Shown here in pieces: positions 12,001-15,000 of a stretch of 62,297 nt of DNA (positions are counted from its first letter, which is position 1; every line of letters starts with the position of its first letter). The stretch lies in assembly GCF_024298765.1 (NCBI RefSeq), contig NZ_CP101213.1, one strand, 5' to 3'. The DNA is from Escherichia coli (GTDB lineage Bacteria > Pseudomonadota > Gammaproteobacteria > Enterobacterales > Enterobacteriaceae). The position numbers were made by a program.

Positions 12001-15000
12001 TCTTCTACTTTTTCTTTTATTTCATTATCCAGATCGCCGCACGTCTCAACAATATTCTTGAATCTTTGAATATAGTCATTTTCTACAGATGAAACGACCT
12101 GTCTGAAGCCCTCAGACAGGGCAGTGAAGTTAGCTTGTAACTCATTGCTGAATTTTTCCTGTATCTTTTGGTTCAGAAAAATTAATGAAATAACTGGATC
12201 ATCTTTTGATATTTTATGCCCTGTCTCCTTGAATACATCAACAATAAAATTATCAATATCTTCACTGGAAACAGCCTTTTCAGGCTGTTTTAATTCTGGC
12301 TGATTAACTGTACTCATATTATTCACCGTGTTCATCGTCATAGATGCTATCTAATTGTTTGTAAATGTCATTGAAGACTCGTTTTAATCGTGATTTAGCC
12401 ATTAATCCAAAATGGTCGGACTCAAGAGCTTCTTTCAGTGTTAGTGATTTTTCTGTTAGCTCTTTGATGTCAGAGGCAAAGGCATCACTTTTTCTGTCCT
12501 GAATAACCACAACGCCAGCGATTACATCCTTGTTTTTTTCAATGAATTTAGTTTCTATTAATGGGATATTTTCAAGTGCTGGAATACCCTGAAATTCATT
12601 TATCCAGACAATAAGTTTTACCTTACTTCCTTTAACCAGTTCTTTCAGTTCTTCAAATCCCTGCAAGGTATCCGCAAGAGCTTGTCCACCAACGATAACA
12701 GTATGGATATAAACGTCTTGTTCTACATCTTCAAACATGTCCATAACACAGTTATCATTGAAATACTGAATTAACGGTAAAAATGTAGATGCGCCATTGT
12801 CAATAACAAAAGTATTCTGACTATTGGTCAGCATTGATTCGAACATTGGATCGAATTTGGATTGTATTACTTTGCTGTTTTCAGTGATTTGTATCAAATC
12901 TGCATTTAATCTTTTTACTTTAACCGTAGTTGTATTAACCGGGTCTGTGTCACCGACTACGATATTATCCATGTGATTTTCATCAATAAAGTATTGTGCC
13001 AGTATTGCGGTCGCGAATGATTTTCCAACACCACCTTTACCCTGAAGGATGAAATTGATTGAGTTTTTCATTTATAATGCTCCTTTACTTAAAGATATTT
13101 ATTTATGAATTTTTCATTCGTAGCACTTGGATCGTGCTCTATTTCTTTTTTGTTCTCACTAATGTTTGAAAAAAAACCTTTTACCCCCCCTCTCGGTTCA
13201 TCGCCTTTAGCTTCATTCTGATCAATTACATCTATGGTTTTTGCCTGTTCTTTTGGTTCAGTGCATTTTTGTCTTTTTTTAGCCCTCTCTGTCATATTTA
13301 TATAAGTCTTTTGGGCTAGTTCTGTCTTGGTGTTGTTGTTTATGTAATCAGCTATTTGCTCCCATGTATAATATTTCTTTGCTTCAAGTATATTTTGCAA
13401 ATACATATTGAAGACAGCCTGTTTTGATTTCGATTTTGTTTCGTTTATAGCCTCGCATATTGGAGATAATAAACTCTCGATCTTTTTCATTTGTTACATT
13501 TCCTCTCTCTCTCTACCTCCTACATTGGCATAATACCTTATTTAAAGCAATTTGCTCGCCGTTTGTGTGGGTGATTATGTGGGTTGTTTTGTGGGTTGTC
13601 AATGGGGGTGTGGTCTTTTTTGTGGGTTAAAGTGTGGGTGATTATGTGGGTTGTGTGTTTTTGGTTGTGGGTTATTATGTGAGTCATTGTGTGGGCTGTA
13701 TGCACGGCATTTTTTGTTCTTCTAAAACACAGGCACGATACCGATTGTACACAAGACCGTTCCGGTCATGTTACAATCGTGTGCCAAAGGGGGACGCCCC
13801 TTTGAAACCCCGAACGATGCAGCCGTTCTTATGCGGTTCTACGAACCTTGAGGACATATGAAGAAAAAAACCAACAAAAACGTTCATGTAACATTCAGAC
13901 TTACCGAAGAAGAATATGCTCCGTTCGATAGGGCTATAAAAGAGCTTAATATTAGTAAGTCTGAATTTTTCAGGCTGCTTACTATTGGTAAAATAAACAC
14001 ATATGCATCTGATAAACGTAACATACCAGAATACAAACGTTGTCTTTCTCAGTTGAGTTGGGCAGGAAACAACATAAATCAAATAGCGCACCGATTAAAT
14101 TCAGATCATTTAAAAGGTATTATATCAGAATCGCTTTATAAAAAGGTTTTAAATGGACTAATCGGTATTCGTGATCGCCTTCAGGAGATAGCTAAATGAT
14201 TGTCAGATACGGTGGTGGTAATGATGGTATCGTTGATTATCTGATAAATGGTCGCAAAGCAGAACGCCAGTACACGCGTGATGAACTTGATCATCGTGTT
14301 GTTCTTGATGGTGATTTACAGACTACAGATAAGATTATTGATTCTATTGAAAACAAAAGTCAGGAACGTTATTTGCACATTACTCTGTCTTTTCATGAAA
14401 GTCATGTGTCGAATGAAGTGTTAAAGGCTGTTGTTGATGATTATAAAAAATTATTGATGAATGCTTATCATCCTGATGAATACTCTTTTTATGCGGAAGC
14501 TCATTTGCCTAAAATTCGTCATATCCAGGATAATAGCACTGGTGAACTTGTTGAAAGAAAACCACATATTCATATTGTAATTCCTAAAGTAAATTTGATT
14601 ACTGAAAAGTTCCTGAATCCAGTGGGAGATGTTACCAAAGGGCATACAATTGAACAGCTTGATGCTATACAGGAATTTATTAATAATAAATATAATCTTG
14701 ATAGCCCTAAAGACTATCCGCGTAAAGATGCGGATTACGGAAAAATTATAAGTAGAGTTAAGGGGGATCTTTACAAAGAGCATCACTCTGAATTGAAAGG
14801 TGAGTTGCTTTCGCGTATAGAGAACGAGAAAATTGAAAATTACTCTGTATTCAAAGATATTGTTGCAGAGTATGGTGAACTTCGTATAAGAAATGCTGGT
14901 AAAACCAATGAGTATCTGGCTGTAAAATTGCCTGGAGATAAAAAATACATAAACTTAAAAAGTCCTCTTTTTCGTCAGAATTACATTGAGACAAGGACAT

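What the first reader, a model, noticed from the sequence alone, without database searches (positions are those of the whole stretch)
13500..13857. oriT region with direct repeats and strong hairpins between divergent leader and relaxase operons
The intergenic region carries several copies of gtgggtgattatgtgggttgt and hairpins such as caaagggggacgcccctttg immediately upstream of the MobC-like gene. This is the expected nic region and the binding sites for accessory proteins. The exact nic site cannot be read from sequence alone.
Basis: partly seen in the sequence, partly recalled or inferred. Interest (0 to 1): 0.35.

Follow-up and report, generated by a model that had tools for sequence, protein, structure and literature searches.

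The report
IncI2 plasmid transfer origin, dissected
This is the transfer origin of a common mcr-1 (colistin-resistance) IncI2 plasmid: an ordinary R64/RP4-type nick region, next to a separate array of repeats that most likely binds the neighbouring StbA/TraK-like protein, not the relaxase helpers.

Summary
The window is an IncI2 mcr-1 plasmid, 100% identical here to pMCR-H9. The interval 13491-13857 lies between a 133-aa gene plus traL on the minus strand and mobC(nikA-like)-relaxase on the plus strand.

The region has two modules.

1. **R64/RP4-type oriT core (13722-13812), read on the minus strand.** It runs: GC hairpin, 38-nt imperfect inverted repeat, 8 nt, then the nick region 5'-TATCGTG|CC. 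The nick is predicted between 13734 and 13733. The inverted repeat shows strong compensatory covariation across 11 plasmids.

2. **Repeat array (13566-13696).** It holds 9-11 same-strand TGTGGGT heptamers, mostly 12 bp apart, and contains a near-consensus promoter for the 133-aa gene.

Natural swaps separate the two modules. R721 has an identical MobC and the same inverted repeat, but a different StbA-like protein and different repeats (TGCTATG, 11 bp). Other plasmids keep the StbA-like protein and the repeats while MobC and the inverted repeat change.

The repeats are therefore best read as an stbS/TraK-site analogue. The 133-aa protein is a remote StbA relative. Its assignment of the repeats to nicking accessories, and its claim that nic is unreadable, are not well supported.

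The oriT location is already in the literature (knock-out in pHNSHP45). Interest is low to moderate.

The parts
13722..13741 (-). Predicted nick region, 5'-GTATCGTG|CCTGTGTTTTAG-3' on the minus strand. The predicted nic lies between the complements of 13734 and 13733.
   Evidence: It sits in the same position (8 nt 3' of the large inverted repeat) and orientation (accessory gene behind, leader operon ahead) as ATCCTG| in ColIb-P9/R64 and RP4-type pBS228. It matches RP4 TATCCTG|C at 7 of 8 positions. CGTGCCT is invariant in the 11 plasmids aligned, which come from Escherichia, Salmonella, Providencia, Klebsiella, Edwardsiella and Pseudomonas.
13742..13779 (.). Large imperfect inverted repeat: CGATTGTA-c-ACA-a-GACCG ttc CGGTC-a-TGT-TACAATCG. 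It is the counterpart of the 17-bp inverted repeat of R64 and the 19-bp inverted repeat of RP4, and the likely MobC/NikA-like binding site and termination hairpin.
   Evidence: Found (I23). The outer arms resemble R64 CAATTGTAAT...ATTACAATTG. In the whole structure (27 pairs), 12 pairs show changes on both sides; all 12 lie in the 16 pairs of this repeat. For the whole structure, 90% of cells are paired against 33-50% for slid controls, and 0 of 500 shuffles reach the observed values. The arm sequence changes with the MobC allele.
13732..13785 (.). GGCAC (13732-13736) and GTGCC (13781-13785) can extend the hairpin stem. This would place the predicted nick inside the 3' arm of the stem base.
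   Evidence: Predicted in the folds of 10 of the 11 family members; L003 folds differently. It is also in the consensus structure. The pairs are nearly invariant, so covariation cannot test them (helix 2).
13785..13804 (.). It is the counterpart of the 8-bp inverted repeat of R64 oriT.
   Evidence: Found (I24). The stem is conserved and the loop varies in all 11 relatives. Providencia has TAAAGGGG/CCCCTTTA, which reads by eye as a compensatory C-G to T-A change at the base of the stem; the MAFFT alignment places that sequence one column out of register, so the counts do not record it. R64/ColIb-P9 has GTCGGGGC gaa GCCCTGAC in the same relative place.
13566..13696 (+). Array of 9-11 direct TGTGGGT heptamers in three sets (13566/78/90/[603]; 13621/33/45; 13666/78/90), mostly 12 bp apart. 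Proposed binding array for the 133-aa StbA/TraK-like protein, analogous to stbS.
   Evidence: The motif changes with the adjacent protein and not with MobC, the relaxase or RepA.
13574..13602 (-). Sigma-70 promoter-like site TTGACA-17-CATAAT (11 of 12 matches) reading towards the 133-aa gene, embedded in the first repeat set.
   Evidence: The equivalent TTGACA-17-CACAAT lies inside the TGTGTGT array of pZ869-2. TTGACG-17-CATCAT (R721) and TTGACA-16-TATGAT (Providencia) abut their arrays. These are consensus matches only.
13748..13777 (+). Candidate mobC-relaxase promoter, TACACA-18-TACAAT with an upstream TG, lying inside the large inverted repeat.
   Evidence: The same site is found in R721, pZ869-2 and the Providencia plasmid. 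This is a consensus match only, and autoregulation is inferred by analogy with RP4 PtraJ and RA3 mobCp (PMC4175270).
13812..13847 (.). Two short palindromes just upstream of the mobC ribosome-binding site: GAACG-N7-CGTTC (13812-13828) and GGTTC-tac-GAACC (13835-13847).
   Evidence: Read. Relatives keep a hairpin at the first site with other sequences (GAACGGC/GCCGTTC, GAACGG/CCGTTC, CCATGAT/ATCATGG). At the second site, p86-24-2 has AGTTC/GAACT, a compensatory change. Function is unknown; an operator or a 5'-UTR structure are possibilities.
13089..13490 (-). Gene for the 133-aa StbA/TraK-like protein: a confident helical N-terminal domain (1-77) and a low-confidence tail.
12319..13071 (-). TraL-type ParA/MinD-like ATPase with a KGGVGKS Walker A motif.
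   Evidence: It is 34% identical to IncP TraL, E 1e-47. NCBIfam TraL PRK13886 scores 182 bits, below the curated 360. It also hits Pfam CbiA.
11610..12341 (-). Third gene of the leader operon (243 aa), in the position of traM/stbC.
   Evidence: Only sub-threshold hits to IncP TraM (E 1e-3) and StbC (E 1.5e-3). Its C-terminal part is shared with R721, while its N-terminal part belongs to the swapped cassette.
13858..14199 (+). Gene for a NikA/MobC-like ribbon-helix-helix relaxosome accessory protein (113 aa).
   Evidence: Pfam NikA-like PF21983 scores 43.8 bits (cut-off 27) and MobC PF05713 scores 29.7 bits (cut-off 23.2).
14196..18509 (+). Relaxase gene (1437 aa; nikB in IncI2 annotation): N-terminal MOBP-like nuclease domain, an LPD7 domain and a long acidic repeat.
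   Evidence: Relaxase PF03432 is only sub-threshold (17 bits against 24.6). The motifs HITLSF and PHIHIVIPK align with RP4 TraI HLLVSF and LHIHIAINK in a non-significant BLAST alignment. MOB-suite types these plasmids as MOBP.

Best explanation
The interval is the transfer origin of an IncI2 plasmid, built from two separable modules.

**Module 1 (13722-13812), read on the minus strand: an IncI1/IncP-type oriT core.**
- The order is GC hairpin, then a 38-nt inverted repeat, then 8 nt, then the nick region 5'-TATCGTG|CC.
- Inferred mechanism, by analogy with R64 NikA/NikB and RP4 TraJ/TraI:
  - The NikA/MobC-like ribbon-helix-helix protein binds the repeat arm next to the nick and positions the relaxase.
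  - The relaxase cuts the minus strand between 13734 and 13733 and stays attached to the 5' end.
  - Transfer then leads with the 133-aa gene and traL.
  - The hairpin formed by the inverted repeat helps termination.
- The repeat also holds a candidate mobC promoter, so accessory-protein binding would autoregulate the operon.

**Module 2 (13566-13696): an array of 9-11 TGTGGGT heptamers, mostly 12 bp apart.**
- It starts about 37 bp beyond the nick on the leader side.
- It is inferred to be bound cooperatively by the 133-aa StbA/TraK-like protein encoded next to it.
- The array contains the TTGACA-17-CATAAT promoter of that operon, so binding should repress it.
- By analogy with R388 StbA/stbS and RP4 TraK, the nucleoprotein complex would position the plasmid and, together with the TraL ATPase, tune presentation of oriT to the transfer apparatus.

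**Shown here:** the sequence anatomy, the homology of layout, the covariation, and the allele-by-allele association of repeats with the StbA-like protein and of the inverted repeat with MobC.

**Inferred:** the exact nick, all protein-DNA contacts, and the phenotypes.
For: **Identity and context.**
- The region is 100% identical to IncI2 pMCR-H9, and 448 records cover most of the query.
- A predicted oriT of pHNSHP45 was deleted and conjugation was lost (PMC11878559).

**Layout matches R64 and RP4.**
- In ColIb-P9 and pBS228, the strand that carries inverted repeat, spacer and ATCCTG| has nikA/traJ behind it and, in the IncP plasmid, traK-traL ahead.
- The window's minus strand has the same order. 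Its repeat arms resemble R64's (CGATTGTAAC versus CAATTGTAAT).

**Conservation.**
- The core ...CAAAGGGG-loop-CCCCTTTGGCAC-N-inverted repeat-GT-NN-CGTGCCT is kept in 11 plasmids from 6 genera.
- The inverted repeat covaries: 12 of 27 pairs change on both sides, 0 of 500 shuffles match, and 90% of cells pair against 33-50% when slid.

**Repeat statistics:**

**Double dissociation.**
- R721: MobC 100% identical, StbA-like 18% identical. It has the same inverted repeat but TGCTATG repeats at 11 bp.
- pRHB42-C20_3: MobC 90%, StbA-like 99%. It has the same TGTGGGT repeats, and the repeat arms change with compensation.
- pZ869-2 versus p86-24-2: identical StbA-like protein and the same TGTGTGT repeats. 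MobC is 65% versus 50% identical to the window, and the inverted repeats differ.
- RepA is 99.4% identical between the window and R721, so the repeats are not tied to replication.

**Protein links:**

**Promoters:**

**A rep-only plasmid carries both modules.** A 2096-bp plasmid holds the array plus the nick core at 85-93% identity. This is what would be expected of a cis-acting unit used in trans.

**Literature.** Guynet 2011 (PMC3098194) already placed R721 YciA and StbB-like genes in the conserved stb-MOB synteny. StbA binds two sets of five 9-bp direct repeats at 11-bp spacing.
Against: - No experiment in the held literature maps nic in any IncI2 plasmid. The core here is CGTG|CC, not the CCTG|Y of IncP, IncI1 and T-DNA borders, so the cut could be displaced by a base or more.
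- The relaxase fails Pfam's Relaxase threshold and shows no significant BLAST similarity to NikB or TraI. The R64/RP4 analogy therefore rests on DNA layout and short motifs.
- No binding data exist.
- In R388, stbS is required for stability but not for conjugation, so the array may contribute nothing to transfer.
- Unlike R388, no further paired copies of the repeat occur elsewhere in the window.
Confidence: 0.78

Rival explanations
1. First reader's reading. The direct repeats are binding sites for the nicking accessory proteins (MobC/NikA-like or the relaxase), and nic lies near the quoted GC hairpin, close to mobC.
For: Accessory proteins in many oriTs bind repeats near nic (PMC4175270). 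The repeats lie within 40-170 bp of the predicted nick.
Against: - R721 and pG3216 have the identical MobC and a near-identical relaxase but wholly different repeats.
- pZ869-2 and p86-24-2 differ in MobC but share the repeats.
- The element that changes with MobC is the large inverted repeat.
- The GC hairpin is the distal element in the R64 layout.
Confidence: 0.07
2. The array is purely a centromere and operator for plasmid stability and operon autoregulation, like stbS of R388. It plays no part in transfer. Only about 13722-13812 is oriT.
For: - In R388, stbS is strictly required for stability but not for conjugation.
- The array contains the operon's promoter.
- Pseudomonas relatives keep the nick core with other arrangements on the leader side.
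Against: - RP4 TraK, in the same synteny, forms a complex at oriT (Ziegelin 1992, cited).
- In R388, StbA and StbB do modulate conjugation strongly.
- The 2096-bp rep-only plasmid keeps the whole array beside the nick core. That could, however, equally serve stability by borrowing the helper's protein.
Confidence: 0.3
3. The nick is elsewhere: on the plus strand, or at the conserved GGTTCTACGAACCTTG block next to the mobC start (AACCTTG resembles ATCCTG).
For: The block TGCGGTTCTACGAACCTKG is conserved in the enterobacterial relatives, including the 2096-bp plasmid.
Against: - It is absent from the Pseudomonas and Providencia relatives, which keep CGTGCCT.
- A plus-strand nick would make the relaxase operon enter first, opposite to R64 and RP4, whose layout this region copies.
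- It is a palindrome with a compensatory variant (AGTTC/GAACT), which fits an operator or RNA structure better.
Confidence: 0.06
4. The repeats are replication iterons, or a chance G/T-rich low-complexity tract.
For: Phased direct repeats are typical of iterons. The stretch has extreme GC skew of 0.74-0.82.
Against: - RepA lies about 12.5 kb away and is 99.4% identical in R721, which has different repeats.
- The array is far beyond chance.
- Four different motifs occupy the same position in relatives, each at 11-12-bp phasing.
Confidence: 0.02

Closest known systems
oriT of IncI1 plasmid R64/ColIb-P9 (NikA/NikB; MOBP12)
   Same: - It lies directly upstream of the accessory gene and relaxase operon.
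- On the nicked strand there is a distal 8-bp GC-rich inverted repeat, then a long inverted repeat with related arms (CAATTGTAAT versus CGATTGTAAC), then a short spacer and a nick region ending in TG|.
- The accessory protein is a NikA-like RHH protein.
   Different: - The nick core is ATCGTG|CC rather than ATCCTG|TC.
- The proteins show no significant pairwise similarity.
- R64 has no StbA/TraK-TraL operon and no repeat array on the leader side.
- The GGCAC/GTGCC extension that pairs the nick region into the stem is specific to this family.
oriT of IncP-1 RP4/RK2 with the traK-traL-traM leader operon
   Same: - Divergent relaxase and leader operons flank oriT.
- The order on the nicked strand is inverted repeat, 8 nt, then TATCCTG|C, a 7 of 8 match.
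- The leader operon encodes a small oriT-proximal DNA-binding protein of about 134 aa, then a TraL ATPase that is 34% identical to the window's.
   Different: - No significant sequence similarity to TraK.
- From my own knowledge, RP4's TraK region is an intrinsically bent stretch of about 180 bp without an obvious heptamer array.
- The T4SS and relaxase families differ.
R388 stbABC with stbS (StbA centromere-like site)
   Same: - The operon is adjacent to oriT and divergent from the relaxase operon.
- A small HTH protein comes first and a ParA-like ATPase second.
- About ten same-orientation short direct repeats at one-helical-turn spacing sit in sets around the operon promoter.
   Different: - The repeats are 7-mers at 12 bp in three sets, rather than 9-mers at 11 bp in two sets of five.
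- The ATPase here is TraL-type (KGGxxK), not StbB-type.
- No extra operator copies occur elsewhere on the plasmid.
- The relaxase is MOBP-like, not MOBF.
R721 (IncI2 prototype) yciA-stbB module
   Same: - It has the same nick core, MobC, relaxase and RepA.
- YciA belongs to the same protein family as the 133-aa protein.
   Different: - The cassette window 11854-13719 is replaced. R721 has a 159-aa YciA (18% identical), an StbB-type ATPase 31% identical to R388 StbB, and TGCTATG repeats at 11 bp.
- The junction lies 14 nt beyond the predicted nick.

Membership tests
IncI1/IncP-type (MOBP) oriT | Lies immediately upstream of, and divergent to or overlapping the promoter of, the accessory-protein and relaxase operon. 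| tested here: met
   The core at 13722-13812 ends 46 nt before the mobC ATG, and the relaxase gene follows.
IncI1/IncP-type (MOBP) oriT | A long inverted repeat is followed about 8 nt later, on the same strand, by a nick region resembling YATCCTG|Y. | tested here: inconclusive
   The spacing of 8 nt and 7 of 8 identity to RP4 TATCCTG|C are met. However, the invariant family core is CGTG|CC, with G in place of the consensus C. The consensus itself is quoted from my own knowledge of Pansegrau and Lanka and of Furuya and Komano 1991.
IncI1/IncP-type (MOBP) oriT | A second, distal GC-rich short inverted repeat, as in R64 oriT. | tested here: met
   CAAAGGGG/CCCCTTTG corresponds to R64 GTCGGGGC/GCCCTGAC in the same relative place. 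The two sets of repeats in R64 are described in PMC3817090.
IncI1/IncP-type (MOBP) oriT | Strand- and site-specific cleavage by the cognate relaxase, and cis-acting mobilisation. | not testable with these tools
   The only indirect evidence is that deleting a predicted oriT in pHNSHP45 abolished conjugation (PMC11878559). The coordinates are in a supplement that is not held.
StbA/TraK family of oriT-adjacent DNA-binding proteins | Sequence homology to StbA_R388 or TraK_RP4. | tested here: inconclusive
   Direct comparisons fail: hhalign probability is 4% against StbA and 0.7% against TraK, and the PDB profile search finds nothing. The transitive link holds: the family profile against YciA_R721 gives 99.4%, E 6e-22, and YciA_R721 against StbA_R388 gives E 7e-11.
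StbA/TraK family of oriT-adjacent DNA-binding proteins | A small protein with an N-terminal helical HTH DNA-binding domain of about 75 residues and a flexible C-terminal part. | tested here: met
StbA/TraK family of oriT-adjacent DNA-binding proteins | First gene of an operon beside oriT, followed by a ParA/MinD-like ATPase (StbB or TraL). | tested here: met
   See, and the synteny described in PMC3098194.
stbS-like binding array | Multiple same-orientation short direct repeats at about one helical turn, in sets, around the operon promoter, and specific to the cognate protein. | tested here: met
   There are 9-11 heptamers, mostly 12 bp apart, in three sets, with the promoter inside. The motif co-varies with the protein across four protein types. 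Physical binding was not tested.
MOBP relaxase | N-terminal relaxase domain with a catalytic Tyr, an HxxxSF-type motif II and a histidine-triad motif III. | tested here: inconclusive
   Pfam Relaxase PF03432 scores 17 bits, below the gathering score of 24.6. The motifs HITLSF and PHIHIVIPK align with RP4 TraI only in a non-significant alignment, E 0.62. MOB-suite types the plasmid MOBP, and Guynet 2011 places R721 in MOBP6.
NikA/MobC RHH relaxosome accessory proteins | Pfam NikA-like or MobC domain above the gathering score. | tested here: met
   PF21983 scores 43.8 bits (cut-off 27) and PF05713 scores 29.7 bits (cut-off 23.2).
IncP TraL | Homology to TraL with a KGGxxK[ST] Walker A motif. | tested here: met
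   34% identity over 238 aa, E 1e-47, with KGGVGKS at residues 11-17. NCBIfam PRK13886 scores 182 bits, below its curated 360, so this is a relative and not an equivalog.

The most novel reading that the evidence does not exclude
IncI2 plasmids carry interchangeable 'presentation cassettes': an StbA-like protein, its own repeat array, and either a TraL-type or an StbB-type ATPase. These cassettes are swapped at a junction 14 nt beyond the nick, while the nick core, MobC, relaxase and replicon stay constant. The epidemic mcr-1 lineage carries the TraL-type cassette and the prototype R721 carries the StbB-type.

If the cassette sets transfer frequency or stability, as stbA/stbB do in R388, the swap could be a determinant of the epidemic success of mcr-1 IncI2 plasmids. 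The array would also be a cis-signal that tiny rep-only plasmids copy in order to hitch-hike; the 2096-bp plasmid even combines it with an IncI1 oriT.
Probability: 0.2. Interest if true: 0.55.

Novelty: new member of a known kind. Interest (0 to 1): 0.3.

Why it matters
IncI2 plasmids are a main vehicle of mcr-1 colistin resistance.

- **A concrete nick prediction and a minimal oriT core (about 90 bp).** These make mobilisation assays, relaxase inhibitor screens and oriT-based detection of hitch-hiking plasmids directly testable.
- **A way to assign sites to proteins without biochemistry.** Naturally swapped cassettes separate the two protein-DNA recognition pairs: the StbA-like protein with the repeats, and MobC with the inverted repeat.
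- **Plasmids mistyped as non-mobilisable.** The oriT core occurs in plasmids typed as non-mobilizable, including 2-kb rep-only plasmids and a 6.5-kb Edwardsiella plasmid. This means their mobility is underestimated.

None of this changes the general picture of conjugation. The element is an ordinary member of well-studied classes.

Tried and rejected
- **Direct protein homology of the relaxase and MobC to R64 NikB/NikA and RP4 TraI.** None was significant.
- **Iteron reading.** Rejected because RepA is conserved while the repeats differ.
- **Extra operator copies of the repeat elsewhere in the window, as in R388.** None were found.
- **Terminator reading of the hairpins.** The only terminator-like hit in the interval (13695-13708) is a weak 5-bp stem, and the GC hairpin has no T-run.
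- **Literature.**
  - The supplement of PMC11878559 with the deleted oriT coordinates is not held.
  - Furuya and Komano 1997 (PMC179678) is not held, so the R64 nick position rests on my own knowledge. I did check that my recalled R64 and RP4 sequences match real plasmids at 98-100%.
  - The NAH7 ParR preprint and the Commun Biol IncI2 T4SS paper did not bear on this region.
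Full report
**What the window is**

The 1-kb stretch around the finding is 100% identical to many E. coli and Salmonella plasmids of about 60 kb. The best-matching record, pMCR-H9, is typed IncI2, MOBP, MPF_T and carries mcr-1.1 just downstream of the relaxase gene.

The interval 13491-13857 is intergenic.
- On the minus strand lie a 133-aa ORF (13089-13490), a TraL-type ParA-like ATPase (12319-13071) and a 243-aa ORF (11610-12341).
- On the plus strand lie a NikA/MobC-like gene (13858-14199; Pfam NikA-like 43.8 bits, MobC 29.7 bits) and a 1437-aa relaxase with an LPD7 domain.

**Check of the observation**

- The quoted 21-mer occurs exactly twice, plus once with three mismatches.
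- The true unit is TGTGGGT. Seven of the window's 11 exact copies fall in 13566-13672 on one strand.
- With one mismatch there are 11 copies in 13566-13696, in three sets, mostly 12 bp apart.
- The dimer pattern occurs 8 times, only here, against 0.33 expected.
- The quoted hairpin is a perfect 8-bp inverted repeat at 13785-13804.
- The minus strand of 13722-13812 folds as DNA with z = -5.1.

**The nick core**

I recalled the RP4 and R64 oriT sequences from memory and checked them against real plasmids. They match IncP records at 100% and IncI1 records at 98-100%.

In both ColIb-P9 and the RP4-like pBS228, the strand carrying inverted repeat, spacer and ATCCTG| has the accessory gene (nikA or traJ) behind it. 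In the IncP plasmid it also has traK-traL-traM ahead.

Read the same way, on the minus strand, the window gives this order:
- mobC behind;
- CAAAGGGG-cgtc-CCCCTTTG;
- GGCAC-a;
- CGATTGTAACATGACCGG-aa-CGGTCTTGTGTACAATCG;
- GTATCGTG|CCTGTG;
- the repeat array;
- the 133-aa gene.

Three features match the known origins.
- R64 has a GC-rich 8-bp inverted repeat in the distal position.
- R64 has a 17-bp inverted repeat with related arms (CAATTGTAAT...).
- R64 has ATCCTG| after a short spacer, and RP4 has TATCCTG|C, a 7 of 8 match to the window.

That the nick lies 8 nt from the repeat in R64 and RP4 is established knowledge that I could not re-read here. PMC3817090 confirms the two repeat sets and the NikA role of the 17-bp repeat.

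I therefore predict the nick on the minus strand between the complements of 13734 and 13733.

**Conservation of the core**

A search with the core alone finds it in IncI2 plasmids and, at 74-88% identity, elsewhere:
- IncX4-typed O157:H7 plasmids;
- Klebsiella and Providencia plasmids;
- Pseudomonas plasmids (pA506, annotated NikA/NikB; P. aeruginosa; P. syringae);
- a 6.5-kb Edwardsiella plasmid.

All 11 sequences aligned keep ...CAAAGGG(G)-loop-CCCTTT-GGCAC-N-inverted repeat-GT-NN-CGTGCCT. The inner stem of the large repeat has a different sequence in almost every plasmid, yet stays complementary.
- RNAalifold finds 27 pairs, 12 of which change on both sides.
- The pair count gives 90% of cells paired against 33-50% for slid controls, and no shuffle of 500 reaches the observed values.
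- The GC hairpin stem and a GGCAC/GTGCC extension are nearly invariant, so covariation says nothing about them.
- The extension would draw the nick region into the base of the stem.

**The repeat array belongs to the neighbouring gene**

Some IncI2 plasmids match the window only from 13720 rightwards. In pG3216 and in the prototype R721:
- the left side is replaced by a 159-aa protein (YciA) and an StbB-family ATPase;
- the intergenic space carries TGCTATG repeats at 11-bp spacing;
- the replaced cassette is window 11854-13719;
- RepA is 99.4% identical, and the mobC-relaxase side is 97.8% identical.

The comparison across plasmids is as follows. Identities are to the window's proteins.

| Plasmid | MobC identity | StbA-like identity | Repeat motif | Large inverted repeat |
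|---|---|---|---|---|
| R721 | 100% | 18% | TGCTATG, 11 bp | same |
| pRHB42-C20_3 | 90% | 99% | TGTGGGT, 12 bp | arms changed, with compensation |
| pZ869-2 | 65% | 50% | TGTGTGT, 12 bp | differs from p86-24-2 |
| p86-24-2 | 50% | 50% (identical to pZ869-2) | TGTGTGT, 12 bp | differs from pZ869-2 |
| Providencia plasmid | 38% | 20% | TTGCCGT, 11 bp | not compared in detail |

The repeats follow the divergent small protein, and the inverted repeat follows MobC. This excludes MobC, the relaxase and RepA as the repeat-binding protein.

**What the 133-aa protein is**

- It has no Pfam, NCBIfam or PDB sequence match.
- An exhaustive HMMER search finds only 56 representative relatives.
- A 49-sequence profile matches YciA_R721 with hhalign probability 99.4%.
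- YciA_R721 matches StbA of R388 by BLASTP at E 7e-11 over the HTH region.
- The profile does not match StbA or TraK directly.
- The AlphaFold model has a confident five-helix N-terminal domain and a low-confidence tail.

The neighbouring ATPase is 34% identical to IncP TraL. The R721 alternative is 31% identical to R388 StbB.

Guynet et al. 2011 had already placed R721 YciA and StbB-like genes in a conserved stb-MOB synteny, and noted that MOBP6 plasmids carry either ATPase type. In R388, StbA binds ten 9-bp direct repeats at 11-bp spacing in two sets around its own promoter.

**Promoters**

- A TTGACA-17-CATAAT site on the minus strand (13602 to 13574) lies inside the first repeat set.
- The equivalent site lies inside or next to the arrays of the other cassettes.
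- A weaker extended -10 site for mobC (TACACA-18-TACAAT, 13748-13777) lies inside the large inverted repeat, and is found at the same place in three relatives.
- These are consensus matches, and regulation is inferred.

**How it most likely works**

- Inferred: MobC binds the inverted-repeat arm next to the nick and positions the relaxase.
- Inferred: the relaxase cuts at TATCGTG|CC on the minus strand. The 133-aa gene and traL then enter the recipient first.
- Inferred: the 133-aa protein coats the phased array about 37 bp beyond the nick and represses its own operon.
- Inferred: with TraL, it couples plasmid positioning to transfer, as StbA/StbB do in R388 and TraK does in RP4.
- Open question: whether the array matters for transfer or only for stability. 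In R388, stbS is dispensable for conjugation.

**Comparison with what is known, and novelty**

The oriT location in this plasmid type was already inferred from R64 and tested by deletion (PMC11878559). The stb synteny in IncI2 is published.

I did not find the following in the held literature:
- a nick assignment for IncI2;
- the TGTGGGT array;
- the cassette swap;
- the allele-by-allele dissociation of the two recognition pairs.

This is a new member of known kinds, of low to moderate interest.

**Seen in passing**

A 2096-bp ColpVC plasmid, typed non-mobilizable and encoding only Rep, carries the TGTGGGT array, the nick core with a different inverted repeat, and the GC hairpin. It also carries a complete IncI1/R64-type oriT across its record junction. 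A small plasmid with two functional oriTs has a precedent in pEC156.

Noticed in passing
L003 (CP082746.1, 2096 bp): 176-450, and 2023-2096 continuing into 1-20: A rep-only ColpVC plasmid typed 'non-mobilizable' carries two transfer origins head to head. One is an IncI2-type oriT: the TGTGGGT array, the nick core TATCGTG|CC, a different inverted repeat and the GC hairpin. The other is a complete IncI1/R64-type oriT (GGGGTGTCGGGG...CAATTGTGATAGCGTC...TATTACAATTACACATCCTGTCCCG), which matches about 1,500 large IncI-type plasmids at 93%. Between them is a second R64-like GC hairpin fused to the IncI2-type core. A sibling plasmid (CP056926.1, 2063 bp) lacks the IncI2-type part.
   Followed up: partly
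window 11854-13719 versus L005 (R721) 27216-28995: A cassette swap within IncI2. The N-terminal part of the third leader gene, the ATPase (TraL-type versus StbB-type), the StbA-like gene and the repeat array are all replaced, while the flanks stay 95-98% identical. The right-hand junction is 14 nt beyond the predicted nick. About 450 of 550 matching plasmid records carry the window's version.
   Followed up: partly
window 10822-11169 and 11150-11629 (minus strand): Two adjacent ORFs share an almost identical N-terminus (MTTFTDDDK.LIKEIRERIGSLDVRDNIERRAYEIALASLEA), and both DNA segments match the same R721 stretch (26822-27215). This is a local duplication in the leading region.
   Followed up: no
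window about 16560-16840, inside the relaxase gene: A long acidic tandem repeat (QATEQA/EQATEQ, about 90 residues) lies in the middle of the relaxase. Relaxase length differs between records: 1437 aa here, 1431 aa in pMCR-H9 and 1272 aa in R721. The repeat is probably length-variable.
   Followed up: no
window 13089-13490 (minus strand): Public records name this StbA/TraK-like protein 'zinc transporter'. I found nothing that supports that name: the protein has no Pfam or NCBIfam match, and its model is a small helical DNA-binding-type domain.
   Followed up: partly
L004, L008, L017 (E. coli O157:H7 plasmids of 31-39 kb typed IncX4): These plasmids carry a homologous oriT core, a TraL gene, a 135-aa homologue (50% identical) and an array of TGTGTGT repeats mostly 12 bp apart. 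It has the same TTGACA-17 promoter inside, and hicAB lies just beyond the operon, as in the window.
   Followed up: partly
L012, L013, L016 (Pseudomonas plasmids); L014 (Edwardsiella ictaluri, 6.5 kb); L015 (Klebsiella variicola): The same oriT core (GC hairpin, GGCAC, inverted repeat, GT-NN-CGTGCCT) occurs in Pseudomonas plasmids, where traL/stbB lie in another orientation. It also occurs in plasmids typed non-mobilizable that have no relaxase annotated near it (L014, L015).
   Followed up: partly
window 13732-13736 and 13781-13785: GGCAC and GTGCC flank the large inverted repeat. In single-stranded form they would pair the predicted nick dinucleotide into the base of the hairpin. They are nearly invariant across the family, so the pairing cannot be tested by covariation.
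   Followed up: partly
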